Assembly: GCA_038228235.1 (NCBI GenBank)
Contig: JBBRPK010000007.1
Span: forward strand, 5,813 to 69,812
Direction: 5' to 3'
From: Verrucomicrobiota bacterium
GTDB lineage: Bacteria; Verrucomicrobiota; Verrucomicrobiia; Limisphaerales; JBBRPK01
Length of the DNA: 64,000 nt
Positions 5,425-26,836 of the stretch are shown in pieces; positions within the stretch are counted from its first letter, which is position 1, and the number at the start of each line of letters is the position of its first letter. A program made the position numbers and the translations under genes. The notes under the pieces were generated by a model. That model saw only the letters and a program-made list of their open reading frames with translations, was not told the origin of the DNA and ran no database searches.

Positions 5425-5480
5425 ATTTTCTTTGTGTTTTGATGTTTGGTTTTTGGTTGTGCCGAAATTACGCGGGCTCA

Positions 5481-8400: not shown

Positions 8401-11400
8401 ATACCGTTAGCGATCCTCCAGCCATTCAGGTCCACAGGATTCGCGCTGCGGTTATAGAGCTCAATCCACTCTTCGGTGGAGGCAGTGAATGGGGTGGCGG
8501 GCACCACGATGGTAGTGAGGACTAGTTCCGCGCCGAAAGCAACATCTCCGCTTGTGTCCGGCGGATTGACCTCCAATTCGTCGATGCAGGCGCCGGCGCT
8601 AGGGCCGCTATTCGGAACCACCAGTCGAAGGCCTGTCGCCGTGACGGCACTGAAAGTGTAGCGGTGGCGGAGGGAAGGACTGGTGAAGAAGCCGGTGCCG
8701 GTGCTGTGATAATTCAGAGTGCCCACGATGGCCCATCCCGTGTCCGCATTGCTGGTGACCTGCGTGGTCACATCGGGGGTGGTCACCCGGGTGTATTGCA
8801 GAGTGTAGAGCCCGAGAGTGCGATCCGAAAACTGACCCAGGTTGTCACGACCAAACGCGAAACTGCTGACGCTGTAGAGCCCCCCAAAGCGCACGCCGGC
8901 AAAAGCGGGGCTACCCGAGTTGCCGATCCAACTGTTGCTGTTCCCGTAGAGGCCATCCGTCAAATTCAGATAGCTATGAATCGGAGAACCAGCCAGGGAA
9001 TCGATGACAAAGGGCGCCGCGCCCGGCTGCCGCGCCAGGTTCATTGGCGCGCTGGCCAACACCGGCCCCTCCTCCACGAGCCGCAGTCCGCCTCCGCTGA
9101 GCGTCAGGCCTGTGGAGGCGACGGAGCCGAGAAACTGGTGGACTTCAACGGCCAGGATATTCAGTCCCTGAACAAGGTTGCTTCCGGCCAGCGGGACCGG
9201 ACCGATAAAGCTCGCGTTTCCGACCGGCGCCAAGGCGGACGTCCCATACGTGACGGGTCCGGCGGGCATGTTGAGCCGATAAACCTCCACGCCGTTGAGA
9301 TAGAAAATCGCCCCATCATCAACGACGCTCCGGAGATTCAGCCCTACATTGCTCGTGGCTCCGCTGAAATTGAACGCAGTTCTAAAATAATAAGTGCTCC
9401 GACCAGGGGCCAGATGAGTGTTAGCAGTTGCCGGAAGCGCGCTGTTACTAACATACAGTAATGCGGAACCAATCAGCCAGGCGCTATCGTCATACCCGGA
9501 CGCGCGCCACCCAGCGCCGAGGTTCGTGCCCGTATCGTTGAACCGCCATAGCCCATCGATGGGCAGGAGGGTGGAGTTGCTGGTCACCGCGGGCACGGGA
9601 TCAAAAGGCCGGTAGTGGTACATTATTTCGTTAAATACGATTTCGTTGTGGGGCACGAAGATGTTCGACCCGCCGGGCGTCGCCAGCGCCGGCATTATCC
9701 AGTCACCAGTTCCGTCCGGGTGCCGCCCCTGTGGGCTGCTCTGGACAGTGACGGCGTCCAGGAGGAGAAATCCATCGCGCGAATAGAGGAAAAGCTTGTT
9801 TCCATTCCCAACCCCAAAACCCAATTGGGCCTGTGAAAGCGACAGAATGCCGCCGGGGGCGAGTGTGTGCGCAGGAAATATATACCGGGGGGAGCCTTGA
9901 GCGGTTCGACTGATCTGAATCCCTTCCAGTTCAGCGGGTTGATCCCCGTGGTTGATCACCTCAAGCCAAAACGCGTTACTACTTGCCGGAGAGAGCTCGT
10001 TGAAGGTGAGATGGGGCGGCGCTGGCAGGATGTCTGATGCAGTCAATTCCAGGCCGAAAGCGGCATGAACGTTCGGCAGGGAGGGAGTATTAACCTCAAT
10101 TTCATCGAGCGTATTCGTCGTGGCCAGTCGAAGGCGGATGCCGGTGGCCAGGATGGGATTTCCATTGGTCGGGGTGAAATCGAACCGATGCCGCAAGCTG
10201 GGAGTAAAGCCTGGCTGAGCGCTCAAATATTGAATAGTAGCGATGGTGGTCCAGCCGTTGGAGGGATTGCTGGAATTGACGGCGACGGTCGCCGGATCTG
10301 CTGCCAGCGTGTATTGGAAAGTGTAGTTGCCGAGCGAACGGTCCGCGCAAGTGCCCCCGCAAGCCGGCTCGTTGGTATTTCCGTTGTCACGGCTCCAGGC
10401 GATGCTGGAGCAAGCGATCGTCTGGTTGAAGCGCAGAATGATGAAGGGGCTGGCATCGGTTGCCGCGGGACTCCAGGAGCTGGTGCTGCCATAGCGCCCA
10501 TCGTTGAGGTTCGCCGCCAGGTTGGTATTGCTGCTCGTGATTACGTCCACCCCTCGCGACGCCAGGGCGGCGTTCGTTGGGGCCGGCGCCGGATTGCCGA
10601 CAGCGAAAAAGTCGCCATCTTTCCCATCCCACGTCACGTTGTAGCCTGAGGCGCGGTTCACGCGCAATCCGGCGTTGGTTGTGCCTGTGGAGATGTGGAG
10701 TTCGACGGCCAGCACGTTCGTCCCCTGCACCAGATTGCTTGAGGCAATGCTGAAGGGGCCGCTCCAGTTGGCATTCAGCGTGGCGCTGGCGGCCATGGTC
10801 GAGTAATTGACCGCGCCCGCCGGCAAGTTCAGCCGATAAATTTCGGTCCCATTCAGATAGACGACGGCTCCATCTTGAATGATGGGCCGAAAGCTAAACA
10901 ACTGCTTCATCGGATCGTTATCCATCAGGAAAGCGCGTCGAAAATAATAGGTGGTGCGTCCAGGAGTGAGGGGCGTGTTCTTCGAGACCGGGGTATCACC
11001 ACTCCCGGCGTAAAACAAGGCCGGGCCGGAGGCCCAGGTGCTGTCATCGAAAGCGGGACCGCGCCAGCCCGTGCCCAGGTCTGTGCCAGATTCTTCGTAA
11101 CTCCAGGTGTCAGTAATGCCCAGGATTCCGTGGCTGGGGGCTGTCAGCGGCGTGGAACTGAAATTCGCTGCTCCGGGGGTTCCCCCAATCTGCAGGCCGG
11201 CAGTCCAATTCTGGGGCGGCTTGCTGGCGAGATTCACATTCCTCTTCACCAGCGACACTCCGCCCCCGTCCGGCCCCACTGGCCAATCACCGCTGACCCC
11301 GTAGGTGACTGTGTCCATCAGGCGATTGTTATTATCGCGAAGTTCGAGTTTCTCGCCGCTATTGGAGAGCCTGCCGGAGAAGGGTCCAAAGACGTTCGTC

Positions 11401-11774
11401 AGTCCGATCTGCCCCATGAGCGCGGCGGGCGAAATCGCCACCAGCACGTACCCGCCGGCCGGGATAGTGGCACCGCTTGGGAAGTTATAACTGATGCCTT
11501 TACTGAGTTGCCACCCGGAAAGGTCCACGTTGACGGAGTTTTGATTATAGAGTTCCACCCATTCTTGCGTCGGCTCGTTCGTGGCGGGATGATACATGAT
11601 CTCGTTGAACACCACGACGCTATCACCCAAAGCGACGCAACCTCCGAGCGCCAACCAGGCCGCGGCAACGCCGACGAAATGTTTCAACCCGGAAAGTCTC
11701 GATGAGAAGGACCGGCACACAGCCGCAATGCGGGCGGCAGAGATCAGGCACTGGACAACGGTTGCCGGGAACAC
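5481..11774 (-). CDS. giant (2097 aa) secreted multidomain protein: 3x lamin-tail domain (LTD), 2x galactose-binding-like module, 2x discoidin-like module, CotH kinase-like domain, thrombospondin-type-3 Ca-binding repeats
   Basis: It has a signal-like segment 'FVGVAAAWLALGGCVALG'. LTD signatures are 'VVFNEIMYHPA..EWVELYN..DLSGWQL', 'LTFNELSP..FWLEVINHG' and 'EEWIELYNRS..DLNGWRI'. The duplicated module reads '..GT(D/N)LG.GWR..DDS.W..TYYFR..DDGA..YLNG.E.YRLN.PAG'. The discoidin-like modules carry 'NLNDGRYGSTSSWS..IAWSRDNG..LRHRFDF..LDEIEVN' and 'NLTDGLYGNSNSWI..FAFGRDN..LRHRYTF..IDELEVN'. The CotH-type region carries 'YISYTVAFP' and 'RAHFLPWDMDFVF'. The Ca-binding repeats read 'DTDGDGMPDVWE' and 'DSDRDGYTDLQEYLAGTDPND'. 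The tail is 'RFYRLVTPQQP'. Confidence 0.85.
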   Translation of the reverse strand: MFPATVVQCLISAARIAAVCRSFSSRLSGLKHFVGVAAAWLALGGCVALGDSVVVFNEIMYHPATNEPTQEWVELYNQNSVNVDLSGWQLSKGISYNFPSGATIPAGGYVLVAISPAALMGQIGLTNVFGPFSGRLSNSGEKLELRDNNNRLMDTVTYGVSGDWPVGPDGGGVSLVKRNVNLASKPPQNWTAGLQIGGTPGAANFSSTPLTAPSHGILGITDTWSYEESGTDLGTGWRGPAFDDSTWASGPALFYAGSGDTPVSKNTPLTPGRTTYYFRRAFLMDNDPMKQLFSFRPIIQDGAVVYLNGTEIYRLNLPAGAVNYSTMAASATLNANWSGPFSIASSNLVQGTNVLAVELHISTGTTNAGLRVNRASGYNVTWDGKDGDFFAVGNPAPAPTNAALASRGVDVITSSNTNLAANLNDGRYGSTSSWSPAATDASPFIILRFNQTIACSSIAWSRDNGNTNEPACGGTCADRSLGNYTFQYTLAADPATVAVNSSNPSNGWTTIATIQYLSAQPGFTPSLRHRFDFTPTNGNPILATGIRLRLATTNTLDEIEVNTPSLPNVHAAFGLELTASDILPAPPHLTFNELSPASSNAFWLEVINHGDQPAELEGIQISRTAQGSPRYIFPAHTLAPGGILSLSQAQLGFGVGNGNKLFLYSRDGFLLLDAVTVQSSPQGRHPDGTGDWIMPALATPGGSNIFVPHNEIVFNEIMYHYRPFDPVPAVTSNSTLLPIDGLWRFNDTGTNLGAGWRASGYDDSAWLIGSALLYVSNSALPATANTHLAPGRSTYYFRTAFNFSGATSNVGLNLRSVVDDGAIFYLNGVEVYRLNMPAGPVTYGTSALAPVGNASFIGPVPLAGSNLVQGLNILAVEVHQFLGSVASTGLTLSGGGLRLVEEGPVLASAPMNLARQPGAAPFVIDSLAGSPIHSYLNLTDGLYGNSNSWIGNSGSPAFAGVRFGGLYSVSSFAFGRDNLGQFSDRTLGLYTLQYTRVTTPDVTTQVTSNADTGWAIVGTLNYHSTGTGFFTSPSLRHRYTFSAVTATGLRLVVPNSGPSAGACIDELEVNPPDTSGDVAFGAELVLTTIVVPATPFTASTEEWIELYNRSANPVDLNGWRIANGILYAFPAATVIPAGGYLVVANDAVALRAKWPEVGPGIVGNFTGKIGAGNTLILMDALGNPANSIQVFASGWSDGGGSSLELIDPRADNNTPDAWADSDETSRSAWQTITYRMASGQTFGNTFWNEFRLGLLDAGEVLVDDVSVIRDPDGVRQQLIQNGDFEGGGAHWRWLGDHRNSRIIPDPDNPANHVLLVCGTAPPRTSHNHIESSFAGNIAPVDGQEYEVSYRARWLAGSPQVGSSAYMQRLSRTAILTLPPRHGTPGAMNSRRLANAGPTFTDLKHTPIIPQTNQAVMVSVRATDPDGVASAALNYRINPGTNFASLAMSAQPDGTWAASIPALGAGTIVQFYISAGDTLGAAAFAPAKGPDSSALYQVADNQGASLPAHELRLIQLDRDRDFVLNATNVMSQGFAGGTLIYDRSEVFYDVGVRLHGSAAGRARDGDDYISYTVAFPPTHLFRGVQAEVNLDRSGRAPTVRWQDEIYIFQMFHHAGIVCQYADLCYFITPKTLHTGTAILQMAAYGGVFVQDQFNVPGAVLNYDITYEPSVTVNGNYEGVKLPVPNLAQVGTDFVDLGNDKEQYRSPFDMRHGAREDNFSGIMRLCQTFGLPQAQFDAQIGAALDVDEALRIAALTVLCGIGDIYFNPNGGLAHNLRLFTPSDGGRAHFLPWDMDFVFSASATSPIYAAPSYNFSKFNNNPATRRLYLGHVYDLCQSVFTPSYMAPWLAHYGSVVGQNYAGGSSYIAARQAFALAQLPAPQPFAITSNNGQDFLTNSATATITGTGWLDIGQLKLQGSTDLLAVAWSSVTNWQARVPLLLGTNPFTFVACDRAGNILGTRSITITTSATGGGVDTDGDGMPDVWELANGLNPYVDNANFDSDRDGYTDLQEYLAGTDPNDPHSLMHLDATNEPFNVRLSFLATAGRSYSVLYRTDPGNGPWSKLADAPPGITSHTVELLLPQAAPAGQRFYRLVTPQQP

Positions 11775-11807
11775 GGCAAAAAGAGTAAAGGGGAAGTCCC
11801 AAAATGG

Positions 11808-11825
11808 TATCCCCCCAAATGGGGG
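11808..11825. repeat. TATCCCCCCAAATGGGGG hairpin motif (copy 1 of 2) in the response-regulator / giant-gene junction
   Basis: It has a C6-AAAT-G5 palindrome. It lies 32 nt downstream of the response-regulator stop (11857) and 34 nt upstream of the giant-gene ATG (11774). It closely resembles 20733-20753. Confidence 0.5.
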
Positions 11826-11856: not shown

Positions 11857-12489
11857 TTAACGACGAAACTTTATCGCCGCCTCGGTGCGGGATCGGACGT
11901 GCAGTTTGCTATAAACGGCCTTCAGATAGCCGCGCACGGTCTCGGCGCTCAACCCCAGGGCTTCGGCAATCTCCTTATTCGTGTAACCGCGTGAAATGTA
12001 CTCGAGAACGTCCGTCTCGCGTTTGGAAAGGTTCTCCACCCCCTTGTCAGAGGCGCCTTGCCGGCGGAACGACTGCACCACCTTGCGCGCAATGTAGCTG
12101 GACATGGGCGCGCCGCCTCGGTGGACTTCCTCGATGGCCTGCAGAATCCCTTCCGTCGTCGAGCGCTTGAGTAAATAGCCGGACGCGCCCATTTCGAGCG
12201 CGCGAAAGATTCGATCGCTGTCGTCGTAAACCGTCAGCATCACGATGTGGATATCCGGCGCCAGGGACTTGAGTTGACGAACGCACTCCACTCCGGAGAT
12301 GCCTGGCAGGTTGATGTCCATCACCACCACATCGGGTCGGCGGCGCGGCCACAGCTCGAGCGCCTCCTCGCCGGAGGAAAAGGTCGCGACGCACTCGAAG
12401 CCCGCGGCTTCCCCTATCAGATGCGCCAGGTTTTCCCGCACCTGCTTGTCATCCTCCACAATCGCCACCCGGATGCTCAAGAACCCCAC
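11857..12489 (-). CDS. NarL/LuxR-family two-component response regulator
   Basis: REC motifs are 'VAIVEDD', 'DVVVMDINLPGISG' and 'GASGYLLK'. The C-terminal LuxR helix-turn-helix reads 'LSKRETDVLEYISRGYTNKEIAEALGLSAETVRGYLKAVYSKLHV'. The start is either GTG at 12489 or TTG at 12480. Either choice overlaps the kinase stop at 12477-12479. Confidence 0.9.
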   Translation of the reverse strand: MGFLSIRVAIVEDDKQVRENLAHLIGEAAGFECVATFSSGEEALELWPRRRPDVVVMDINLPGISGVECVRQLKSLAPDIHIVMLTVYDDSDRIFRALEMGASGYLLKRSTTEGILQAIEEVHRGGAPMSSYIARKVVQSFRRQGASDKGVENLSKRETDVLEYISRGYTNKEIAEALGLSAETVRGYLKAVYSKLHVRSRTEAAIKFRR

Positions 12490-15400
12490 GCCTTTCCGGT
12501 CTTGGGCAGCGGCAAATGGAGCAGCAGCGAGGTGCCGGACGAAGGATCGCTTTTGAGATCGAAGCTTCCACCGAGATCTTCGATGCGCCGGCGGATGTTG
12601 ACCAAGCCGTCATGGCCGCCGCCCTGCCCGAACGAAGCAGCGATGCCTTTTCCATTGTCAGCAATGTTGATCTTCAATTCACCTTCGTCCATGCGCAACC
12701 GGAGCCAAACTTCGCTGGCGCTGGAATGTTGGACGACATTGTGCAACGCCTCCTTCACAGCGAGAAACAAATGATGCCGGGTTTCGGTGGAAAGCGGATG
12801 CTCCGGCAAATCCGCCGGGATGTCCAGCCGGCATCGAATCGAGGTGGGGCGGAAAAACTCCTCGGCGAACTGTGAGACGTAATTAGCGAAGTTATCCAAC
12901 GAATCGTTGCGCGGGTTCACCGCCCAAACGATCGCATCCATCGCCCGGACCGCTTCGCGCGCGGTGACCGATATCTGGCTCAGGTTGGCCGACACTTCCT
13001 CCGGCTTGTGCCGGTGCTTCTGGCCGACTTCAGTGAGCAAGGCGATGCGGGTCAGGTTCGCGCCCAGTTCGTCGTGGATATCCCTGGCAATGCGTGTGCG
13101 TTCTTGCTCAACCGAATGTTGCTCCAGGACGCGCTGCAACTTCCGCCGCAACCGGCGCACCGCGGTCAAACGCACCATCAAACCGCCGACACCCAGAAAC
13201 ACAATGAGGGCAGACGCATCGAACCACCGGGATTGCCAGAAATGCGGGCGAACCGAAAAGCGGATGGATGCGCCGGCCTCGTTCCAAACACCGTCGTTGT
13301 TGCAGGCCTTGACGCGGAAGATGTAACGCCCCGGCGGCAGATGGGGATACGCTGCCACCCGCTGCGTCTCTGCCTCCACCCAGTCCTTTTCCAAACCGTC
13401 GAGCCGATGCTTAAAACGATTGCGCTCCGGCGCTACGAGGCTCAAGGCGGTGAATCGAAACTCCACGCGTTGCACCCCGGGCCCGAATTCCAGCGCTGAC
13501 CCTGCGGTGTTTGCCATTGGAACTTCCATTCCGTCCGTCAGCACTTGCTCCACTACTACTGGAGGCGGCTTCTCATTCACCGAGATGTTGTGCGGGTCCA
13601 CCATCACCAGGCCCTTGACTGTGGAGAACCACAGATTGCCGTCGCGCGTCTTGAGTCCCGCCGGATAAAATCCTCCGGTGCACTCAAGACTCTCCATGCC
13701 CTCGGCGCGACCATATGAAATTGCATTCACCCGTGAGGCCTTCCCTCCGGCGATAGCTTCGAACTCGCGCGCGGCCACTCGAAATATGCCTTGATTGCAT
13801 CCGAACCAAAGATTGGTCCGATCGTCCTCGAGGATTTGCGAAATCACCTCGTCAGGCAATCCCTGCGAACGGGTGAACGAGGCGATTTTCCCCTCCTGCA
13901 TCCTCGCTAATCCGCCGCCCGTCCCAATCCACAAAACCCCGTTCGCATCGCGATGAAGCGCGCGGATGAAATCGCTCGGCAGACCGTCACGGCGGCCAAA
14001 TGTGGTGAGACGCCCGCGTTCCAATAGTTGGAGCCCCCCTCCGCTTGTCCCCACCCACAAACCTTCGCGCGCCTCCTGCACGAGAGCTGTGACGGGATGG
14101 ACCGGCTTTCCCTTCGAGGGCTGGGCATCGGAAACGTTGCCATCTCGAAATGATTTCAACCCCCCCTGCATCGTGCCCATCCATAAACCGCCGTGGCCGT
14201 CCTCGCAGAGCGCGACCACCGGTTCGTCATTGCCCGGACGCGCCACGGGAAAGTTCTTCACTTCGCGCCCGCGCATCTGAAACAAACCTCCCCCCCATGT
14301 TCCGGCCCATAACGAGCCGTCCCGGCCTGAAAGCAATGACCAGATGCATTCGTTGTCGAGAAGGTAATTGGCATAGTAGGGAGCAAGCACGCCGTTGCGC
14401 CGCGCGCTGAGTCCGCCGCAGTTTGAACCGATCCACAACGTCCCCTCCAGGTCCTCGGCCAGCGACATGACGACATTATGCGCGAGGCCGTCGCGCGTGG
14501 TGAAAGTCGTGAGCTTGCGCGGCTTGACGCGGTTTAATCCGCCGCCAGCGGTTCCCACCCACAGGCTGCCTTCGCTATCCTCGAACAGGCAGCGCACAGA
14601 ATTGTCGGAGAGCCCTTCCTGCGTGGTGAGCGAGGTGAAATGTCCGTGGCGCAACCGGCGCAAACCTCCATTGGCGGTGCCGGCCCACAGGTCGCCGTTG
14701 CGGGTCTCGCGCAAGGCCCAGATCGCTTCGAGCAATTGTCCGGGCTGCTCCCGGTACACTCGCACGGTTTCGTTGCTCACCGCCCCGATGTAGCCATTCA
14801 CCCCCCCGAACCAGAGTTGACCAGAGCGCCCCGCCTCCGCCGCCAGCACGCTGCTAAAAGAACTTGGGTCAAAGCCCCTGGGCTTCGCGAGAGGCCCCTC
14901 GCTGGAGCGCGTGAGAAGCTGATTGTCTGCGACCGCCCAAAGTGTGTTGCTGCCATCCACGCACGTCACTAAAATCGACGACCCGGATGGGGGCCCAAGC
15001 GCGGTTGGTTGAACAAATTTATCCTCGCGCCAACAACTTAGCCCCGCCGGTGTTCCAGCCCAGACTTGGCCGGATCGATCCTGTGCCAGGGTGGTTACCG
15101 TGTCGCTGCGCAAGCCGTCCAGGCGGGTCAGCGAGCGGGATCTGCCATCGCGCAAACCGATCAACCCGCCCCCCTCCGTCCCGATCCAGAGCGTGCCTTC
15201 GCGCCCCGCGAGCAGGCAGAGAACACGCGTGTTCGGCAGCTCCGAGGCTTCCCCGAAAACCTGGAACCGGAGGCCGTCGAAACGCGCCAGCCCATTCAGC
15301 GTTCCGATCCACAGGTACCCATCCGACGTCTGTTCAATCGCCGTGATCGTGTTTCCGGGCAGCCCATCGGCTGTCTGCCACACATCGATGCGATAATCGC

Positions 15401-16136
15401 TCGACGCCTGACCCGCCTCCACCGAGAGCGTGGTGCCGACCGGCGCAAAACGGTTTACCAACGAGCGCGTGATGGAGGCGCCGCTGATTGATTTCGCCTC
15501 GGCCGGGAGCGGTTCGCGATCGGCCGAGGACGCCACCGTGCGCCATATGTTGGTGTCCGTGGCGACCTGAATCTCATACTGCGTGGCCAGGCGATCGATG
15601 AAGTTCCCTTCGCGGTCGCGGCCCCAGACAACCTTGTTGATGCGGGTCGGTAGCGGGAATTCGATCTGCACCCACGCGCCATCGATTCGGTCGGCAATCC
15701 AGCTCCGGCCATTGCCGTAACGACCGTCATTGATGCCTTCGAGTTGATGAATCCCGTAGCCTTGCATTGAGCCGGAGGCTTGCGCGCGCGCGCCGTTCGC
15801 CGCCAGGGCCACGTTGCGCGCTAAACCCTCCGCGGCATAAACCTCCAATTCATCCAGGCAGGGCTCACCTCGGTTCGTGGCGCGGATGGTAAAGCGCAGA
15901 AACTTTGCCTCGACAGGGGCGAATTCTTCCACATTCCGCCGCGGATGCACCGGTTCCCGCAGGGCCGCGGCTGTCGGCAGGGAGAACGCTGCCAAGACAA
16001 GCGCGAGCGTGAAGATTAATTGAGTCACTGGCTTCAATGAGGCATATGCTAAGGCTGGAAACTCTCGACGTAAACAGCTCTCCATCCACATGCGAACGGC
16101 GATCTCAGGGAGCCAGCTACCGGCCAGGCATCCCAT
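12477..16136 (-). CDS. large periplasmic-sensing histidine kinase: discoidin-like domain + beta-propeller repeats + Y_Y_Y domain + HisKA_3/HATPase_c
   Basis: The N-terminal TM/signal is 'VTQLIFTLALVLAAFSLPTAAA', followed by a discoidin-like domain (aa ~76-209). Regulator-propeller repeats include 'DGYLWIGT', 'GTLWIGTEGGGL', 'GSLWVGTAGGGLN' and 'GVLWIGTGGGL'. The Y_Y_Y-like region reads 'YIFRVKACNNDGVWNE' and the second TM is 'ASALIVFLGVGGLMV'. The H-box is 'RIARDIHDELGANLTRI' and the ATPase region reads 'INIADNGKGI..GGHDGLVNIRRRIEDLGGSF'. Alternative starts lie at 16091 and 16085. Confidence 0.9.
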   Translation of the reverse strand: MGCLAGSWLPEIAVRMWMESCLRREFPALAYASLKPVTQLIFTLALVLAAFSLPTAAALREPVHPRRNVEEFAPVEAKFLRFTIRATNRGEPCLDELEVYAAEGLARNVALAANGARAQASGSMQGYGIHQLEGINDGRYGNGRSWIADRIDGAWVQIEFPLPTRINKVVWGRDREGNFIDRLATQYEIQVATDTNIWRTVASSADREPLPAEAKSISGASITRSLVNRFAPVGTTLSVEAGQASSDYRIDVWQTADGLPGNTITAIEQTSDGYLWIGTLNGLARFDGLRFQVFGEASELPNTRVLCLLAGREGTLWIGTEGGGLIGLRDGRSRSLTRLDGLRSDTVTTLAQDRSGQVWAGTPAGLSCWREDKFVQPTALGPPSGSSILVTCVDGSNTLWAVADNQLLTRSSEGPLAKPRGFDPSSFSSVLAAEAGRSGQLWFGGVNGYIGAVSNETVRVYREQPGQLLEAIWALRETRNGDLWAGTANGGLRRLRHGHFTSLTTQEGLSDNSVRCLFEDSEGSLWVGTAGGGLNRVKPRKLTTFTTRDGLAHNVVMSLAEDLEGTLWIGSNCGGLSARRNGVLAPYYANYLLDNECIWSLLSGRDGSLWAGTWGGGLFQMRGREVKNFPVARPGNDEPVVALCEDGHGGLWMGTMQGGLKSFRDGNVSDAQPSKGKPVHPVTALVQEAREGLWVGTSGGGLQLLERGRLTTFGRRDGLPSDFIRALHRDANGVLWIGTGGGLARMQEGKIASFTRSQGLPDEVISQILEDDRTNLWFGCNQGIFRVAAREFEAIAGGKASRVNAISYGRAEGMESLECTGGFYPAGLKTRDGNLWFSTVKGLVMVDPHNISVNEKPPPVVVEQVLTDGMEVPMANTAGSALEFGPGVQRVEFRFTALSLVAPERNRFKHRLDGLEKDWVEAETQRVAAYPHLPPGRYIFRVKACNNDGVWNEAGASIRFSVRPHFWQSRWFDASALIVFLGVGGLMVRLTAVRRLRRKLQRVLEQHSVEQERTRIARDIHDELGANLTRIALLTEVGQKHRHKPEEVSANLSQISVTAREAVRAMDAIVWAVNPRNDSLDNFANYVSQFAEEFFRPTSIRCRLDIPADLPEHPLSTETRHHLFLAVKEALHNVVQHSSASEVWLRLRMDEGELKINIADNGKGIAASFGQGGGHDGLVNIRRRIEDLGGSFDLKSDPSSGTSLLLHLPLPKTGKAWGS

Positions 16137-16192
16137 CCGTCAAAATGGGCCGCCAAATGCCCGCTGAGGCGCTGGGCATTGCGGCATAGCCA

Positions 16193-17695
16193 TCACCCGA
16201 GAATGCCCTTCACAACCTCCCCGTGAACGTCGGTCAAACGACGCTCGAGACCGTTGTGGTAGTAGGTCAACCGCTCGTGATCCAGCCCGAGCAGATGCAG
16301 GATCGTCGCGTGCAGGTCATAAACCGTGACGATGCTCTCGACCGACTTGTAGCCAAACTCGTCCGTAGCGCCGTAGCTGAAACCTTTCTTCACCCCCGCA
16401 CCCGCCATCCAGCAAGTGAAGCCTGCCGGGTTGTGGTCGCGGCCCTGGGCGCCTTTCTGGAAGGTCGGCATGCGTCCGAACTCCGTGCACCAGACCACTA
16501 ACGTGTTGTCGAGCAGGCCGCGCTGCTTGAGATCGATGAGCAGCCCCGCGGTCGGCTTGTCGAGCACCGGACCGTGCAGGCTGTATTGCTTGAAGAGCTC
16601 CTTGTGGCCGTCCCAATTGCTCACGCCTTCGCCGCCGGTCTGGTAGGCGCCGTTGAAGAGCTGCACAAAGCGCACGCCTTTTTCCAGCAACCGCCGGGCG
16701 AGGATGCAATTCCGCGCGTAAGCCGCCCGCGTCTCGTGTACCTTCGAGCCGCCTTCATCCGCTCCGTAAAGCTTCAGGATGTGGGCGGGCTCGCTGGAAA
16801 GATTTGCCACCTCAGGAATCGTGAGCTGCATCCGCGCCGCCAGTTCGTAGCTCGCGATGCGCGCGGCCAGTTCCGTGTCACCCGGAAAACGCTCGGCATG
16901 ATGCTCGTTCAGCTTTTGCAGGAATCCGCGCGTGGCCGAGTCCGAGTTCGCGCTGACGGAGCCCGGCCGCGCCAGATTGCGAATCGGATTGGTCGCATTA
17001 AACTCGGTGCCCTGAAACGAAGCGGGCAAAAATCCCGGCGCCCAATTGTTCACGCTGTTTTGCGGCTTGCCGCGGGGATCGGGAATCGCAACGTAGGCCG
17101 GCAGGCTTTGATCGTCGCTGCCCAGGGCATAGGTCACCCACGCGCCCAGGCTCGGAAAGCCGTCCAGCGCATTGCAAGTGGACATGAAGTTTTCCCCCGG
17201 CCCGTGCGTGTTCGTTTTCCCTTGCATGGAGTGAATGAAACAGATGTCGTCCGCCAGTGCCCCAAGGTGCGGGACCAGATCGGAAATCATCTTGCCGCAC
17301 TGGCCGCGCGGCCGGAACTCCCACGGGCTTTTCGTCAGGGCCCCCTGTTCGCCCTGGAAGGTGATGAGCTTCTCCTGGCCCGGCATTGGCTGACCGTTCC
17401 TGCGAATGAGTTCCGGCTTGTAATCAAAGGTGTCGAGCTGGCTGCAAGCCCCGCTGCAAAAAATGACGATGACGTTCGTGGCGCGGGGTGTAAAATGGGG
17501 TTCGCGCGGCGCATACGGACTGCCCGGATGAATCACCGGTCGAATCGGTTCCTTGCCTGATACTGTTGCCGCCAGCAATCCCTGCCGCCCGAGCAGGTGC
17601 GTGAGGGCGATCGCGCCCAGGCCGATTCCGGTGTCGGCCAGAAATCGGCGGCGATCGAGCAGCGGGCTTTTGAATAAAGGGAAAGGCTGGCTCAT
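16193..17695 (-). CDS. DUF1501 domain protein (sulfatase/alkaline-phosphatase-like fold), Tat-exported
   Basis: It has a Tat signal '[18 protein letters not shown]' and the hallmarks 'WCTEFGRMP' and '[21 protein letters not shown]'. An ATGA overlap (17692-17695) links it to the upstream PSCyt gene. Confidence 0.9.
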
Positions 17696-20604
17696 GGGAT
17701 AAAAAGAAATTCGTTCGAGTTAAAAATGGCGCGGCAAAGCGCGGGCAATCCTTCCGCTTTCGTAAACTCCGCCGCCTCTTGCGCTTCCCTCCAGTCAGGC
17801 AGCCGGTTGTAGGCCAGCTTCCAGGCCTGGCGCAGCTGCGCCGCGCTTTCGGGGCCCGCTTCCTTCCGCAACCGCTCCGCGAATGCCTGGGACTCCTGAA
17901 GGATGAACCGGCTGTTAAACAAATTCAACGCCTGCAATGGGGTGGTCGAGACACTCCGTTTGGGCATCACCAGGCTCCCATCCGGGCAATCGAAGGCGCC
18001 GAAGATGCCGTCCTGTTCCATGCGCACCTTGAAGGCATAAACCATCCGGCGGGATTCAGCCCGGGTGAATTGTTCCTTCGGATGATAATGGTAAACATTC
18101 TCCCGATCCACGTCGTGCAGGAAAAAGCTCGGGCCGCCCCGCGTTCGATCGAGCTCGCCGCTCACCGCCAGGATGCCGTCGCGAATGGCTTCCGCCTCCA
18201 GACGGCGCGGCGGAAATCGCCACAGCAACCGGCTGGCCGCATCCACCCTCAACGCCTCCTCGCGCGGCGCGCTCGATTGCCGCCACGTCGCCGAGGTGAG
18301 TATCTCTCGTTGCAGCTTCTTGATGCTCCAGCCTTTGTTCACAAATTCACTCGCCAGCCAGTCCAGCAACTCTGGATTCGCTGGCCGGGCCCCGTTCCTG
18401 CCGAAATCGTTCGGCGTGGTCACAAGACCGACCCCGAAATCCTGCTGCCAGAGACGGTTGACCATCACGCGCGCCGTCAGCGGGTTGCCAGGGTCGGCAA
18501 TCCAGTCAGCCAGTTCCAAACGGCGCCGCTGCTCCGGCGTGTTGGTCGCGAGTGTTAGCGGATGAAATATGGCGAGTGTCCCGGGCGGGACCACCTCGCG
18601 TTTCTGCATCGGATCGCCCCGGTGCAATAGATGCGTGGGACCAGGCTGGGAGAAACTGCCGGCATAAACCATCGGCGCCTTCGCCAGGGAATCCCGCTGC
18701 TGGCGGGATTTCTCCAGCTCCGCCAGCCATTGACGGCCCTGCTCGGCCTCAGGCGGCGGGGCGTCGGTGAAAAGGTAAACGGGACCTGCCGGTTTCTCGA
18801 TCTTCCCTGTGAACGGTTCGCGGTCCTCGGAACTCGCTACGAGCTTCCAGGCGTTCGTAATCAGGGCAGCCTCGATGCGATATTTGGTGGCGACCCTGTC
18901 CTTGAACTGCCCCTCGCGATCACGTCCCCAGACAATGCGCTCAACGCGTTCTGGTTTGGCGAATTCCAACTGCACCCAACCCCTGCCAGTCTCGCTGGAA
19001 ATCCAGGAACGGCTGTTGCCGGTGCGGCCGTCGTTGATATGCGCCAGTTTATGAATCTCGTACCCGGCCAGAGTGCCGGACGCGCTCGCCTTGGTTCCAT
19101 TGGTCGCCAAGGCCACGTTGCGGTCCTCGGACCAGACCTCCAGCTCGTCGATGCACGGTTCGCCGGAAGCTTCGAGAATCGTGAATCGGATAAACTTCGC
19201 CTCACAGGGGGAGATAACTTCTTCATTCCGCAGGGCATTGACGGCCGGACGCAAAGCTTGGCCGGCTGTGTTGGTGACCCCGCGCTCCGGGTTTGCCTTG
19301 GGAATAAAACGCGCTAGGCGGTGTTCCAGCTCTTTAATGCGACCGTCCAGTTTCGTGATCTCCTCCTTCCGCTCCGGTGGCAGCGGCACGGCGCGATCCC
19401 CGTGTTGCACGCCCGCAAATACGGCCACCATCGAGTAATACTCCTGATGCGAAATCGGATCGAACTTGTGCGAGTGACAACGAGCGCAGCCCAGCGTCAA
19501 CCCAAGAAACGCCGTGCCCGTCGTGCCTACCATATCGTCCAGCTCGTCCGCTCGTTGCTGCGACGTCAGCGTGATGTCCGGGCTCTTCACGATATCGACA
19601 GGTCCGCCGACCAGGAAGCCGGTGGCCACATCCATGCCCAGCGCGTCGCCGGCAATCTGTTCGCGAATGAACCGGTTGTAGGGCTTGTCCTCATTGAATG
19701 CGGCGATGACATAGTCGCGGAACCGCCATGCATTGGGCCGCTCGCGATTGGTCTCAAAACCGTTGCTCTCGGCGAAGCGAATGACATCGAGCCAATGCCG
19801 CCCCCAGCGTTCTCCATAGCGCGGGTCATCCAGCACTCTGTCCACGAGCCGCTCGAAGGCTTTCGGCTTTTTATCAGCCAAGAATGCCGTTAATTCCTCC
19901 GGCGTCGGCGGCATGCCGAGCATCACGAAAAAAAGCCGGCGGATGAGAATCGCGCGATCCGCTTCCGGTGACGGGGCGACTTTGACTTCATCGAGCTTGA
20001 CCTGGATGAAGGCATCGATGGGATTGCTATTTGCGGCAATCGCTGCATCACTGTTTCGGGAACCACCGCTATTATTGGTTGTTGAGTGACTTCTCTTCGG
20101 CGTCTGCGGCCTCACTACCGGTTGGAAGGCCCAATGCGATTTAATGGGGTCCTGGTCGGCCCGAGTTTCCTCTGGCCAATTGGCTCCCTGATCGATCCAT
20201 GCCCGCAGGAGGCCGATTTGTGCCGGCGTCAGCGGATCACCCTTGGCCGGCATTTTTATGTCCGGCACAAGACCCGAAACAAGATGAATCAAGGGGCTGC
20301 CGGCGCTGTTGCCGGGCTTGATGGTTGGCGTGTAATTCTCGCCTCCCCTGAGTGCCGTCGCTTTCACATCAAGGCGATATTCCCCTTTCTGTTTCGTCGG
20401 CCCGTGACATGAGAGGCAAGACTTCGCGAACATCGGCTGGATGTCCTTCACGAAATCGACCTGGCGCGTGGCGGCTGGGGGTATCTTGGATGCATCCAGC
20501 GCGGCGCCCGAGCCGGGTCCCGCCAGGCAGGCGAAGGCCAGGAAAAGGATCACGCGGTGTCGTTCGTGGACCGTTTTCCGGCTGAATCTTTTGTTTGTCG
20601 CCAT
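17692..20604 (-). CDS. PSCyt1 / DUF1549 / DUF1553 (PSD1) family protein with an inserted discoidin-like domain
   Basis: The heme motif reads '[18 protein letters not shown]'. DUF1549-type motifs are '[21 protein letters not shown]' and '[18 protein letters not shown]'. A coiled coil '[17 protein letters not shown]' follows, then the inserted domain (aa ~488-617 of the 990-aa ORF). The DUF1553-type C-terminus reads '[23 protein letters not shown]'. The ORF opens at ATG 20664, but I prefer ATG 20604 because it gives a signal peptide ('[34 protein letters not shown]'). Confidence 0.85.
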
Positions 20605-20732
20605 TTCCGGCTTGTTAGAATTGTTTAGTGTCACGGTCATTACGTCCACGAGAATCCATCGCATTGGGGTTCACGCAAACCGAACGCACATGGACTACCC
20701 CTGCAAGCATCGGGGCAAATCCTCCAGATAGC

Positions 20733-20753
20733 TATCCCCCCAATAGGGGGGGG
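20733..20753. repeat. TATCCCCCCAATAGGGGGGGG hairpin motif (copy 2 of 2) in the HMA-gene / PSCyt-gene junction
   Basis: It has a C6-AATA-G8 palindrome. It lies 51 nt downstream of the HMA-gene stop (20804) and 69-129 nt upstream of the candidate PSCyt starts. It shares 'TATCCCCCCAA.T.GGGGG' with 11808-11825. Confidence 0.5.
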
Positions 20754-20803: not shown

Positions 20804-21364
20804 TCATGGGGCCACGCTCGTAACCACAACTTCCCGCTTCTTCAAGGCGGCTTCGAGGGCGGCGCGGTTGGTCTTATTGGTGTCGATGAGCGCGGTGATG
20901 CGGCCCTCCTTGAAGCTCGCGGTCGCCTGCGCTACCCCCTCAATCCTGTAGATAATTTCGTAGGCGGCCAGGCAGCAGGCTTTGCAGTCGAGGCCGGCGA
21001 CCGGGATCTCGATGCGATTGAGTTGGTCTTTTGGAGTGGAGATGAGGGGTTGGACGCCCAGGGTGTGGTTCGAGATGGAGCGAAGCCGTTCGTCAAAGCG
21101 CTTCGGAATGTCCTCGGCTTTCGTATCTTTGAACGCCACCGCCGGATCGTACCGGAGCACGGCTTCGGCGCGCGCAAAATCAAGCGAGACTAACTTGATG
21201 CCGGACAGCTGGGAGAGGGCGGCCCGCAGGTCGGCCTCGCGGTCGGCTGAGTATAGGCCCGTCACGCGGTGAATGAAGTTTTGCTCCGCCGCGGACAGCG
21301 ACAGAATCATGGGGCAGGGGAGAATGAAGACGAGAAATGTGTAACAAAGCAATTGGCTTGTCAT
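20804..21364 (-). CDS. secreted protein with two heavy-metal-associated (HMA)-like ferredoxin-fold domains
   Basis: The signal peptide is 'MTSQLLCYTFLVFILPCPMILSLSAAEQ'. The second domain carries a metal-binding-type motif, 'IEIPVAGLDCKACCLAAYEIIYRIEGV' (compare GMxCxxC). The first domain lacks the cysteines. The longer ORF to 21457 adds only an Arg/Trp-rich extension. Confidence 0.55.
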   Translation of the reverse strand: MTSQLLCYTFLVFILPCPMILSLSAAEQNFIHRVTGLYSADREADLRAALSQLSGIKLVSLDFARAEAVLRYDPAVAFKDTKAEDIPKRFDERLRSISNHTLGVQPLISTPKDQLNRIEIPVAGLDCKACCLAAYEIIYRIEGVAQATASFKEGRITALIDTNKTNRAALEAALKKREVVVTSVAP

Positions 21365-21462
21365 GCGCCATATCCGGTCCTGATCGCGCCGCCAATTTGG
21401 ATCGGGCCACCGTCGTCTTTTAGCACCCGTTCTGGGTGCAATGAAGTTGTGTGCCATGATTC

Positions 21463-25262: not shown

Positions 25263-25359
25263 AAAGTAGTTCCAGCCATCTTTCACGGAAAAAGGGGGTC
25301 GCACGCCGCGACGGCGATTGGGCTGACAGAATCATGATTTTGCGGCCGATGATCCTCTC

Positions 25360-26616: not shown

Positions 26617-26836
26617 GTTGCTCCGTTCATAGCACAAGATCCGCTGGAGCGGCAACCGAAACTCCTGGTTTCCATGGCGCCGGCCCCGGTGCGGCTCAAG
26701 GCGCAGGTTGGTTAAAAACAACTAGGATGAACAAAACGCAACAGTTTTAATCTTACGTCGAAAAAATTTCATTTCAGCAGAATTGCTCAATGAACAAAGG
26801 TCTTTGCTGGTTTTGAGAATGCTGGGGCGCGGAGGC

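What the first reader, a model, noticed from the sequence alone, without database searches (positions are those of the whole stretch)
12477..20664. The kinase's periplasmic sensor domain is a close paralog of a domain inserted in the neighbouring PSCyt/DUF1549/DUF1553 protein
Two segments align almost without gaps. One is aa ~76-209 of the histidine kinase (nt 15510-15911): '[89 protein letters not shown]'. The other is aa ~488-617 of the PSCyt/DUF1549/DUF1553 protein (nt 18814-19203): '[88 protein letters not shown]'. By my hand alignment about 79 of ~133 positions are identical.

Nothing else in the two proteins is related. Both copies place the 'RF.I....DELEV' strands before the 'NVALA..NDG' part. 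In the discoidin-like modules of the downstream secreted proteins (and in canonical F5/8 type C order) those strands come last. This suggests a circularly permuted variant.

The DUF1549/DUF1553 + DUF1501 pairs are abundant in PVC genomes and have no assigned function. A dedicated two-component sensor sharing the pair's putative ligand-binding module would be a rare functional handle. My inference is that the kinase senses the same extracytoplasmic ligand that the PSCyt protein binds, and that the LuxR-type regulator then controls the adjacent operons.
Basis: partly seen in the sequence, partly recalled or inferred. Interest (0 to 1): 0.8.

Follow-up and report, generated by a model that had tools for sequence, protein, structure and literature searches.

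The report
Permuted discoidin domain shared by kinase and PSCyt protein
A sensor kinase and the neighbouring PSCyt/DUF1549/DUF1553 protein of unknown function carry the same rearranged sugar-binding-type domain, and shared DNA palindromes in front of the neighbouring genes suggest the kinase's partner regulator controls them, which gives an experimental handle on a long-unexplained protein system of Verrucomicrobia and Planctomycetes.

Summary
Kinase aa 58-219 and PSCyt/DUF1549/DUF1553 protein aa 470-627 are 54% identical (E 2e-48), and nothing else in the two proteins is related.

The module is a circularly permuted F5/8-type-C (CBM32-like) domain. This rests on reversed versus collinear profile alignments to solved CBM32s and on a confident AlphaFold model (pLDDT 93).

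"Close paralog" is an overstatement:
- The domain belongs to a strongly conserved family (293 clusters at E<=1e-30), found mostly as the insert of one DUF1549/DUF1553 orthogroup in Planctomycetota and Verrucomicrobiota.
- Kinase copies form their own clade.
- Identity to the neighbouring PSCyt copy is no higher than to PSCyt copies from other genomes.
- The domain is only the N-terminal 150 aa of a roughly 920-aa periplasmic region. The rest is a BT4663-like propeller/Y_Y_Y sensor.

A functional link is nevertheless supported. The PSCyt(domain) gene, usually with DUF1501, lies within 10 kb of the kinase in 10 of 28 kinase loci, in several arrangements. A CCCC(C)-N4-(G)GGGG palindrome sits upstream of the PSCyt operon, of the secreted discoidin/LTD/CotH genes, and of the kinase gene in related loci.

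That both domains bind the same ligand is plausible but untested.

The parts
20731..20750 (-). Palindromic site CCCCCTATTGGGGGGATAGC, 67-86 nt upstream of the first ATG of the PSCyt ORF. Candidate operator.
   Evidence: The 20-mer pattern with up to 3 mismatches matches only here and at 11806-11825 in 64 kb (0.01 expected). Sequence read.
17692..20664 (-). PSCyt1 / DUF1549 (PSCyt2) / inserted domain / DUF1553 (PSD1) protein, 990 aa, with a signal-peptide-like N-terminus and CxxCH motifs.
   Evidence: Pfam PF07635 46 bits, PF07583 263 bits, PF07587 296 bits. Translation. No solved relative.
18784..19257 (-). Permuted discoidin-like domain inserted between DUF1549 and DUF1553 (aa 470-627).
   Evidence: BLASTP to the kinase domain E 2e-48. 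Pfam F5_F8_type_C covers profile positions 2-84 natively and 2-117 after permutation.
16193..17695 (-). DUF1501 protein (500 aa) with twin-arginine motif RRRFL. Overlaps the PSCyt stop by 4 nt.
   Evidence: Pfam PF07394 485 bits. Translation. Homologs 61-89% identical lie beside PSCyt(domain) genes in most loci.
12477..16136 (-). Histidine kinase, 1219 aa. Order: signal/TM, permuted discoidin domain, Reg_prop propellers, Y_Y_Y, TM, HisKA_3, HATPase_c.
   Evidence: Pfam. PDB homologs 3v9f and 4a2l (BT4663) at E 7.5e-56 and 2e-54; DesK for the kinase core.
15480..15965 (-). Permuted discoidin-like domain at the N-terminus of the kinase's periplasmic region (aa 58-219).
   Evidence: AF2 pLDDT 93.4. 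Pfam and PDB profile tests of permutation.
13251..15464 (-). Reg_prop beta-propeller repeats and Y_Y_Y domain (aa ~225-962), the canonical ligand-sensing part.
   Evidence: PF07494 184 bits in 7 stretches; PF07495 aa 902-962. Homology to the 4a2l and 3v9f periplasmic sensors.
11857..12489 (-). Response regulator (receiver + GerE/LuxR HTH, NarL class). Overlaps the kinase stop by 13 nt.
   Evidence: PF00072 100 bits, PF00196 68 bits.
11806..11825 (-). Palindromic site CCCCCATTTGGGGGGATACC, 32-51 nt upstream of the GTG start of the 2097-aa protein. Candidate operator.
   Evidence: The same site, TTACCCCC-N4-GGGGGG(T)ATAC, is conserved after the regulator gene in L002, L015 and L016.
5481..11774 (-). 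2097-aa secreted protein with lamin-tail domains x3, a CotH-like region, a TSP3 repeat and canonical-order discoidin-like modules.
   Evidence: Pfam. Modules found with native and permuted family HMMs. Homologs next to the kinase-regulator pair in many loci.
2542..5484 (-). 980-aa secreted protein with four canonical-order discoidin-like modules.
   Evidence: No Pfam hit at E <= 1e-3. Family HMM hits at aa 90-141, 310-414, 518-597 and 739-819, two of them with trailing C-pieces.

Best explanation
The shared segment is a circularly permuted discoidin (F5/8 type C, CBM32-like) domain of about 150 aa. The last three strands of the canonical fold come first, and the old termini are joined by a short linker.

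The domain family is strongly conserved in the PVC group of bacteria (Planctomycetota, Verrucomicrobiota and relatives). Its main home is one orthogroup of periplasmic PSCyt1/DUF1549/DUF1553 proteins that are paired with a Tat-exported DUF1501 (sulfatase-superfamily) protein.

In Verrucomicrobiota the domain was recruited long ago, not by a recent local duplication. It was added to the N-terminus of the periplasmic propeller/Y_Y_Y sensor of a NarL-class histidine kinase.

My inference for how it works is as follows. The kinase and its LuxR-type regulator form a glycan-type sensing system. The accessory domain recognises the same ligand, or class of ligand, as the domain in the PSCyt protein. 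The phosphorylated regulator binds CCCC(C)-N4-(G)GGGG palindromes. It thereby co-regulates the PSCyt(domain)-DUF1501 genes, the large secreted discoidin/LTD/CotH proteins and, in related loci, its own operon.

What is shown: homology, permutation, fold, family distribution, gene linkage and motif placement.
What is inferred: ligand identity and sharing, regulator-palindrome binding, and direction of regulation.
For: Homology: 54% identity, E 2e-48.

Permutation:
- Pfam PF00754 covers profile positions 3-82 natively and 3-118 when the N-piece is moved to the C-end (33.5 to 39.8 bits for the kinase copy, 28.8 to 33.6 for the PSCyt copy).
- The native family profile hits CBM32 4zz5_A in two pieces in reversed order.
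- The permuted profile aligns collinearly to whole solved CBM32s: 4zz5, 2j22, 3le0, 2jd9.
- Tandem two-copy forms exist (P0008, P0068, P0073, L070, L075).

Fold: AF2 pLDDT 93.4, pTM 0.89. Foldseek finds no canonical discoidin match.

Family: 293 clusters at E<=1e-30 and 854 at E<=1e-10. Most carriers are PSCyt/DUF1549/DUF1553 proteins. There is also a kinase family and an HZS_alpha family.

Ancient recruitment: most kinase copies, including the window's, form one NJ clade; the two-copy kinases and P0141/P0179 branch elsewhere. Identity within a locus is no higher than between genomes.

Shared site: 43 columns are >=85% conserved with the same residue in both groups and none with different residues. 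These include the loop residues H73, N79-D80-G81, G84-N85, S88-W89, R116-D117-R118-E119 and D124-R125.

Linkage: PSCyt(domain) lies near the kinase in 10 of 28 kinase loci, upstream, downstream or divergent. The secreted-protein homologs are adjacent in 15.

Motif: two sites in the window. 22 of 31 sites in kinase loci fall within 4.4% of the sequence, in regulatory windows (p 1.6e-23). None lies upstream of PSCyt genes in the 52 other loci.

Sensor type: BT4663-like periplasmic domain, E 2e-54.
Against: - No ligand or DNA-binding data exist.
- The kinase already has a complete BT4663-type sensor, so the extra domain may not be the signal-binding part.
- Four kinase loci with 6.5-10 kb of flank on both sides lack a PSCyt(domain) gene (L011, L014, L016, L021), and seven more show none in shorter or occupied flanks.
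- About 50 PSCyt(domain)+DUF1501 loci lack the kinase within 10 kb.
- Some residues are specific to one group: H77, S91, G95 and G97 are conserved only in PSCyt copies, and the HPRRNV stretch only in kinase copies. Specificity could therefore differ.
- The motif windows were defined after the hits had been seen.
- A clear palindrome directly upstream of the PSCyt gene is present in only 3 loci, with degenerate versions in 2 more.
- The palindrome could be bound by another factor or act as an RNA hairpin.
- Permutation is supported by profiles and by a model, not by a structural superposition that allows for permutation.
Confidence: 0.55

Rival explanations
1. The signal is sensed only by the propeller/Y_Y_Y sensor, as in Bacteroides hybrid two-component systems. 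The N-terminal permuted discoidin domain is an accessory module, for example tethering to a polymer or the envelope, or aiding dimerisation. It happens to come from the same PVC domain pool as the PSCyt insert. The two domains do not share a ligand in any meaningful way, and adjacency simply reflects the regulon.
For: The periplasmic region aa 225-962 is a complete BT4663-like sensor. The domain occurs in at least three unrelated architectures. Kinase and PSCyt copies are separate clades with some group-specific residues. Many kinase loci lack a nearby PSCyt(domain) gene.
Against: All invariant polar loop residues are identical in both groups, and no column is conserved differently. The domain is retained at the same position in every member of the kinase family sampled. 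Linkage to the PSCyt(domain) gene persists through several gene rearrangements.
Confidence: 0.25
2. The domain is a protein-protein interaction module. The kinase uses it to dock onto the PSCyt/DUF1501 complex or the secreted discoidin-repeat proteins, or to compete with the PSCyt copy for a common protein partner. The kinase would then read the state of that machinery, in the way some kinases sense through a periplasmic partner protein such as TorS-TorT or HptS-HptA.
For: F5_F8_type_C was classed as a protein-interaction domain in PSCyt proteins by He et al. (PMC5615132). Partner-mediated sensing is established for other kinases (PMC8534201). All proteins concerned are predicted to be extracytoplasmic. 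Surface conservation is unusually high for a carbohydrate-binding module.
Against: The domain's solved relatives by sequence include many carbohydrate-binding CBM32 modules, alongside neuropilin and lactadherin discoidin domains. PSCyt(domain)+DUF1501 pairs are widespread without the kinase. No interaction was modelled or measured.
Confidence: 0.12
3. The kinase domain is a recent local duplicate, or gene-conversion partner, of the neighbouring PSCyt insert. This is the literal 'close paralog' reading.
For: 54-61% identity with almost no gaps between adjacent genes.
Against: The kinase domain is 56% identical to its neighbour, while the mean against 62 foreign PSCyt copies is also 56% (maximum 61%, 40 of them higher). 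The same holds in 7 other loci that carry both genes. Most kinase copies, including the window's, form one clade, and the window's PSCyt copy sits in another clade.
Confidence: 0.03

Closest known systems
F5/8 type C (discoidin) / CBM32 carbohydrate-binding modules, e.g. PDB 4ZZ5/2RVA (Paenibacillus glucanase/chitosanase CBM32), 2J22, 3LE0, 2JD9 (YeCBM32), 2J1A
   Same: Homologous by profile (Pfam PF00754; PDB profile hits E 1e-5 to 1e-8). It has the same DG...W core motif and an all-beta sandwich in the model.
   Different: Strand order is circularly permuted: the canonical C-terminal ~45 residues come first. Conservation is much higher (about 55% across phyla). There is an elaborated set of invariant charged loop residues (NDGxYGN, RDRE, DR). 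No dedicated Pfam or NCBIfam model matched.
Bacteroides thetaiotaomicron hybrid two-component sensor BT4663 (PDB 4A2L/4A2M) and 3V9F
   Same: The periplasmic Reg_prop double propeller + Y_Y_Y sensor is homologous (E 2e-54 and 7.5e-56). BT4663 is listed among structurally known kinase sensors (PMC8534201).
   Different: This is not a hybrid system. The kinase has a HisKA_3 (DesK/NarX-type) core and a separate NarL/LuxR regulator. The N-terminal permuted discoidin domain lies outside the part of the kinase that aligns to the solved sensors.
PSCyt1/PSCyt2(DUF1549)/PSD1(DUF1553) + DUF1501 gene pairs of PVC bacteria (Kamneva et al. 2012, PMC3542564; He et al. 2017, PMC5615132)
   Same: Same domain set, the same adjacent Tat-signal DUF1501 partner, and an optional CBM-type insert. 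Both papers list F5_F8_type_C as an occasional extra domain.
   Different: Here the insert is shown to be a permuted, highly conserved family that marks one orthogroup of the pair (partner DUF1501 61-89% identical, against 26-45% for other paralogs). It is also linked to a dedicated two-component system and a shared palindrome, neither of which is mentioned in those papers.
NarL-class regulators binding inverted heptamers (E. coli NarL TACYYMT; my own knowledge, not tested here)
   Same: The regulator has receiver + GerE HTH domains. The candidate site is an inverted repeat whose half-site TACCCCC resembles the NarL heptamer.
   Different: Binding is not shown. The spacer is 4 nt, and the site abuts a (T)ATAC element, so its role (activation, repression or RNA hairpin) is open.

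Membership tests
F5/8 type C (discoidin) domain, Pfam PF00754 | Score above the Pfam gathering threshold (28.2 bits) | tested here: inconclusive
   As isolated segments the scores are 33.5 bits (kinase) and 28.8 bits (PSCyt), both above the cutoff. In the full-length proteins they are 26.5 and 23.0 bits, both below it.
F5/8 type C (discoidin) domain, Pfam PF00754 | Collinear match over the whole profile (canonical strand order) | tested here: not met
   Native sequences cover only profile positions 3-82 and 2-84 of 127. Artificially permuted sequences cover 3-118 and 2-117. The native family profile hits CBM32 4zz5 in two reversed pieces, while the permuted profile hits it collinearly.
F5/8 type C (discoidin) domain, Pfam PF00754 | Compact beta-sandwich fold | tested here: inconclusive
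   The AF2 model is confident (pLDDT 93.4) and all-beta. Foldseek, which aligns sequentially, finds no canonical discoidin (best 6eon TMq 0.67; CBM32 4lpl TMq 0.35). A superposition that allows for permutation could not be run.
Circular permutant of a known domain | N-piece aligns to the C-terminal part of the reference and the C-piece to its N-terminal part. Alignment improves after re-permutation. Tandem duplicates exist as plausible intermediates. | tested here: met
   for the alignments. Two-copy tandem forms are seen in P0008, P0068, P0073, P0092, L070 and L075 (Singulisphaera acidiphila). P0085 shows a leading C-piece followed by canonical-order units.
Reg_prop/Y_Y_Y periplasmic sensor kinases (BT4663-like) | Reg_prop repeats, a Y_Y_Y domain and homology to solved sensors | tested here: met
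   PF07494 183.9 bits, PF07495 55.6 bits. 3v9f E 7.5e-56, 4a2l E 2e-54.
Hybrid two-component systems (HTCS) of Bacteroides | Receiver and AraC-type DNA-binding domains fused to the kinase | tested here: not met
   The kinase ends with HATPase_c at aa 1211 of 1219. A separate receiver+GerE regulator gene follows.
NarL/LuxR-class two-component system | HisKA_3 + HATPase_c kinase with an adjacent receiver+GerE regulator | tested here: met
   PF07730, PF02518, PF00072 and PF00196. The two genes overlap by 13 nt. The pair is conserved in related loci.
PSCyt1/DUF1549/DUF1553 + DUF1501 module | PF07635 + PF07583 + PF07587 in one protein, with a PF07394 protein encoded next to it | tested here: met
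   The two genes overlap by 4 nt. The twin-arginine motif RRRFL is read directly in the DUF1501 N-terminus.
Regulon of the cluster's response regulator | Regulator binds the palindromes and changes transcription of the flanking genes | not testable with these tools
   Only placement and conservation of the sites could be shown.

The most novel reading that the evidence does not exclude
The permuted discoidin domain is the specificity module of one conserved PSCyt/DUF1549/DUF1553-DUF1501 system. Verrucomicrobia copied it onto a glycan-type sensor kinase, so that the cell induces this periplasmic cytochrome/sulfatase-like machinery and a set of secreted discoidin/LTD/CotH proteins when their common substrate appears. 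That would be the first regulatory and ligand handle on the DUF1549/DUF1553-DUF1501 modules, which have had no assigned function since they were first described in planctomycete genomes.
Probability: 0.3. Interest if true: 0.75.

Novelty: new variant of a known kind. Interest (0 to 1): 0.6.

Why it matters
DUF1549/DUF1553 (PSCyt/PSD) proteins and their DUF1501 partners are among the most abundant unexplained gene pairs in Planctomycetes and Verrucomicrobia. Two papers call them attractive but functionless targets (PMC3542564, PMC5615132).

This locus singles out one conserved orthogroup of the pair. It defines that orthogroup's distinguishing domain, an apparently undescribed circular permutant of the discoidin/CBM32 fold with a dense invariant polar site. 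It ties the orthogroup to a dedicated two-component system with a candidate operator.

That gives concrete experiments:
- ligand screens on a 150-aa autonomous domain;
- EMSA or DAP-seq on two short sites;
- reporter fusions.

The permuted domain also explains why standard domain models only half-match these proteins.

Tried and rejected
- Single-sequence AlphaFold of the kinase domain gave pLDDT 34.6 and was discarded.
- The word-indexed homolog search with the 162-aa domain returned only short gene fragments. These were useful for the alignment but not for architectures, which came from the representative search.
- An exact search for TTGGGGGGATA in the loci was too strict, giving 2 hits. 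A relaxed palindrome search was needed.
- A six-frame 'coding mask' for motif enrichment was too crude in this GC-rich DNA, leaving only 3% as non-coding. It was replaced by windows anchored on genes.
- Clustering of neighbouring ORFs across 80 loci found no further partner conserved in more than 6 loci. The one recurrent family was a prepilin/DUF1559-like protein in 5 loci.
- Recent duplication or gene conversion between the two neighbouring genes was considered and rejected.
- A sigma-70 promoter and terminator scan of the cluster found no more than chance.
- A literature search found no description of a permuted discoidin/CBM32 domain or of this kinase family in the held library.
Full report
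**Anatomy of the cluster**

The region is one run of minus-strand genes with very short gaps or overlaps. In order of transcription:

| Coordinates | Product | Note |
|---|---|---|
| 20804-21457 | Small HMA-domain protein | |
| 17692-20664 | PSCyt1/DUF1549/DUF1553 protein | |
| 16193-17695 | DUF1501 protein | Twin-arginine motif RRRFL; 4-nt overlap with the PSCyt gene |
| 12477-16136 | Histidine kinase | 56-nt gap after DUF1501 |
| 11857-12489 | Receiver+GerE (NarL/LuxR-class) regulator | 13-nt overlap with the kinase gene |
| 5481-11774 | 2097-aa protein with three lamin-tail domains, a CotH-like region and a TSP3 repeat | 82-nt gap after the regulator |
| 2542-5484 | 980-aa protein without Pfam hits | 4-nt overlap |

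The closest related contigs are labelled Limisphaerales, Pedosphaera or Verrucomicrobia. An identical kinase is on a 9.5-kb Logan contig.

- BLASTP of the two full proteins gives one significant match: kinase aa 58-219 against PSCyt aa 470-627, 88/162 identical, E 2e-48. Nothing else scores below E 0.4.
- Inside the window the only other matches to either domain are partial, 25-39% identical, and fall in the two downstream secreted proteins.

**The domain is a circularly permuted discoidin/CBM32 domain**

- Pfam F5_F8_type_C matches only profile positions 3-82 of 127, at kinase aa 119-205. The 'EAKFLRFTI...DELEVY' piece that precedes this stretch is left unaligned.
- Moving that N-terminal piece to the C-terminus extends the match to profile 3-118. 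The score rises from 33.5 to 39.8 bits for the kinase copy and from 28.8 to 33.6 bits for the PSCyt copy.
- A 25-sequence profile of the native family hits the solved CBM32 4zz5_A in two pieces in reversed order: profile 46-144 to chain 6-96, and profile 12-41 to chain 107-137.
- The same alignment with the pieces swapped aligns collinearly to whole solved CBM32 modules: 4zz5 11-144 to 13-137, 2j22 2-145 to 14-146, 3le0, 2jd9.
- AlphaFold2 with a 48-sequence alignment gives a confident, compact, all-beta model (pLDDT 93.4, pTM 0.89). The single-sequence run had failed.
- Foldseek aligns sequentially and finds no canonical discoidin. The best hit is 6eon (TMq 0.67), and a CBM32 reaches only TMq 0.35. 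This is what a permuted topology would give.
- Tandem two-copy forms of the permuted unit exist (P0008, P0068, P0073, P0092, L070, L075). P0085 has a leading extra C-piece in front of canonical-order units. These fit the usual duplication-and-truncation route to permutation.

**How common the domain is, and how 'close' the two copies are**

A HMMER scan of 1.84 billion representative proteins finds 293 clusters at E<=1e-30 and 854 at E<=1e-10. Sorting the best 150 by what else they contain gives four groups:
- Most are PSCyt/DUF1549/DUF1553 proteins with the domain between DUF1549 and DUF1553.
- A second group is Reg_prop/Y_Y_Y histidine kinases with the domain at the N-terminus. Most have one copy and some have two.
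- A third group has one to three copies followed by an HZS_alpha domain, with or without FGE-sulfatase.
- Giant multi-repeat proteins match at only about 30%.

Foreign PSCyt inserts are 45-60% identical to both window copies.

In a neighbour-joining tree of 140 full-length domains, most kinase copies, including the window's, form one clade nested among PSCyt copies. A few other kinases (the two-copy ones, P0141 and P0179) branch elsewhere. The window's PSCyt copy lies in another clade.

In the eight loci that carry both genes, identity within a locus is 45-59%. This is no higher than identity to PSCyt copies of other genomes. For the window it is 55.7% within the locus against a mean of 56.0% and a maximum of 61.1% elsewhere, with 40 of 62 foreign copies higher.

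The two copies are therefore ancient family members, not recent paralogs. The high identity reflects strong constraint on the whole family.

**What is conserved**

Comparing 27 kinase-type with 63 PSCyt-type domains, 43 columns are at least 85% conserved with the same residue in both groups. None is conserved with a different residue.

Shared invariant residues include many polar residues in loops of the model: H73, N79-D80-G81, G84-N85, S88-W89, R116-D117-R118-E119 and D124-R125.

Group-specific positions exist. H77, S91, G95 and G97 are conserved only in PSCyt copies. The HPRRNV stretch is conserved only in kinase copies.

I read this as a common binding site with possible fine-tuning. That is inference.

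**The kinase's sensor**

The domain is the first ~150 aa of a periplasmic region of about 920 aa. The remainder consists of Reg_prop propellers and a Y_Y_Y domain. It is homologous to the solved periplasmic sensors of Bacteroides hybrid two-component systems: 3v9f at E 7.5e-56 and BT4663 4a2l at E 2e-54 (BT4663 is listed in PMC8534201).

The cytoplasmic core is HisKA_3/HATPase_c, of the DesK/NarX type, and the regulator is a separate protein. The system works like a propeller-type glycan sensor but is not a hybrid system.

**Gene linkage in other genomes**

A scan of one genome per species found at least 575 loci encoding the domain. The 79 best were fetched with flanks of up to 10 kb.

*Kinase-type loci.* Counting the window, 28 loci are kinase-type (the list used, which includes the contig-end fragment L027). 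Nearly all are labelled Verrucomicrobiota.
- A PSCyt(domain) gene, usually with DUF1501, lies in the available flanks in 10: the window, L003, L005, L006, L010, L012, L018, L022, L023 and L036. L008 is a probable eleventh.
- The arrangements differ: upstream on the same strand, downstream after the regulator, downstream after the secreted-protein genes, or divergent.
- Homologs of the 980-aa and 2097-aa proteins are adjacent in 15.
- L011, L014 and L016 have neither, despite 6.5-10 kb of flank on both sides. L021 also lacks a PSCyt(domain) gene over the same range but has the secreted-protein homologs.

*PSCyt-only loci.* About 50 PSCyt(domain)+DUF1501 loci from Planctomycetota and Verrucomicrobiota have no such kinase within 10 kb.
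- Their DUF1501 partner is 61-89% identical to the window's, against 26-45% for other DUF1501 paralogs in the same loci.
- PSCyt(domain)+DUF1501 is therefore a distinct, widely conserved orthogroup. A Verrucomicrobial kinase family is frequently, but not always, linked to it.

**A shared palindrome (new observation)**

- The two intergenic regions flanking the PSCyt-to-regulator block carry the same 20-mer on the coding strand:
  - CCCCCTATTGGGGGGATAGC at 20731-20750, upstream of the PSCyt gene;
  - CCCCCATTTGGGGGGATACC at 11806-11825, upstream of the 2097-aa gene.
- The pattern with up to three mismatches occurs nowhere else in 64 kb (0.01 expected).
- In related kinase loci, CCCC(C)-N4-(G)GGGG with an AT-containing spacer recurs in three places:
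  - after the regulator gene or upstream of the secreted-protein homologs;
  - upstream of the kinase gene;
  - upstream of PSCyt(domain) genes. This is clear in the window, L003 and L018, and degenerate in L005 and L006.
- 22 of 31 sites in 451 kb of kinase loci fall within the 4.4% of sequence in windows anchored on these genes (binomial p 1.6e-23), and 17 of 28 loci have at least one such site.
- In 744 kb of the other 52 loci, none of 9 sites lies upstream of a PSCyt gene.
- Caveat: the windows were defined after the hits had been seen.
- The half-site TACCCCC resembles the NarL heptamer TACYYMT (my own knowledge). The cluster's NarL-class regulator is the obvious candidate binder, but this is untested.

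**Mechanism**

The best-supported account is a periplasmic glycan-type sensing system. Its kinase carries, in front of a BT4663-like sensor, the same permuted CBM32-like module that marks one PSCyt/DUF1549/DUF1553-DUF1501 orthogroup. Its regulator co-controls that pair and a set of secreted discoidin/LTD/CotH proteins through the palindromes.

All components are predicted to be extracytoplasmic:
- the secreted proteins and the PSCyt protein have signal peptides;
- the PSCyt protein has CxxCH cytochrome c motifs;
- DUF1501 has a Tat motif;
- the kinase domain lies between the N-terminal signal/TM segment and the TM segment that follows Y_Y_Y.

That both domains bind the same ligand is plausible, given identical invariant loop residues and a carbohydrate-binding ancestry, but it is unproven.

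Rivals:
- The domain is an accessory module and the propellers sense the signal.
- The domain docks onto the PSCyt/DUF1501 machinery or the secreted proteins.
- It is a recent local duplication. This one is rejected.

**Comparison with what is known**

F5_F8_type_C inserts in PSCyt1/PSCyt2/PSD1 proteins next to DUF1501 were noted by Kamneva et al. 2012 (PMC3542564) and He et al. 2017 (PMC5615132). Both state that the function is unknown.

I found no mention of the permutation, of the kinase family or of the palindrome. No Pfam or NCBIfam model is specific for the domain. The PSCyt protein has no solved relative.

**Verdict**

- The permutation is right.
- The regulatory link is supported in silico.
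- 'Close paralog' and 'the sensor domain' are overstated.
- Ligand sharing is untested.

This is a new variant of known kinds, with real value as an experimental handle.

Noticed in passing
window 11806-11825 and 20731-20750 (minus strand); also L002 4434, L015 14132, L016 14792, L018 9857/14168, L022 8628/9829, L024 1689, L025 2748, L036 5908/14226 and others: A conserved palindrome CCCC(C)-N4-(G)GGGG, often followed by (T)ATAC, lies upstream of the PSCyt gene, the secreted-protein genes and the kinase gene in kinase-type loci. It is absent from the front of PSCyt genes in loci without the kinase. It is a candidate operator of the NarL-class regulator.
   Followed up: yes
window 20804-21457 (minus strand): A small 217-aa protein directly upstream of the PSCyt gene has heavy-metal-associated (HMA) domains and a weak, sub-threshold match to the NCBIfam 'UxxU metal-binding (seleno)protein' and MerP/CopZ models. 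It gave no tblastn match at E<=1e-6 in any of the fetched loci.
   Followed up: no
window 21463-26721 (minus strand): A second PVC-specific pair lies just upstream: DUF1552 (25360-26721) and a PSCyt1/DUF1587/DUF1595/DUF1592/DUF1588/DUF1585 protein (21463-24411), with a beta-lactamase-family gene between them (24108-25304). The listed TTG start of the 982-aa ORF overlaps the beta-lactamase gene by 304 nt and is probably too far upstream. The same DUF1552+PSD pair precedes PSCyt(domain) in L068 only.
   Followed up: partly
proteins P0077, P0085, P0115, P0142 (representative search): A third architecture for the permuted domain: one to three N-terminal copies followed by a hydrazine-synthase-alpha middle domain (HZS_alpha), with an FGE-sulfatase domain in P0077. 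These copies form their own clade in the tree.
   Followed up: partly
L075 10022-10903 (Singulisphaera acidiphila DSM 18658, NC_019892.1) and L070 10010-10918; proteins P0068, P0073, P0092: Some PSCyt proteins and some kinases carry two tandem copies of the permuted domain. The junction of two copies recreates a canonical-order unit, which fits the duplication route to circular permutation.
   Followed up: partly
L007 8904-9779, L009 14773-15648, L016 19555-20433, L030 8229-9017, L036 14280-15215: An ORF of about 260-310 aa recurs in the kinase cluster in four kinase-type loci and also in PSCyt-only locus L030. In L036 it sits between the regulator and the PSCyt gene. The L036 member, the one read, has a prepilin-type N-terminal motif (FTLIELLVVIAIIAIL); by my recollection it resembles the abundant PVC DUF1559 proteins. 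It was not scanned against Pfam.
   Followed up: no
model m950b245e2dd2 against the PDB: The only good sequential structural match of the permuted domain is a domain of Bacteroides galactanase BT0290 (6eon, TMq 0.67 over 149 columns, 10% identity). Some glycoside-hydrolase accessory domains may therefore share this strand order.
   Followed up: no
record titles of L026, L032, L037, L036, L052 and several 'uncultured Akkermansia sp.' loci: Contigs encoding typical PVC PSCyt/DUF1501 genes or the kinase are labelled Sphingomonas, Enterobacteriaceae, Bifidobacteriaceae or Akkermansia muciniphila MAGs. These are probably binning or labelling errors in the public records.
   Followed up: no
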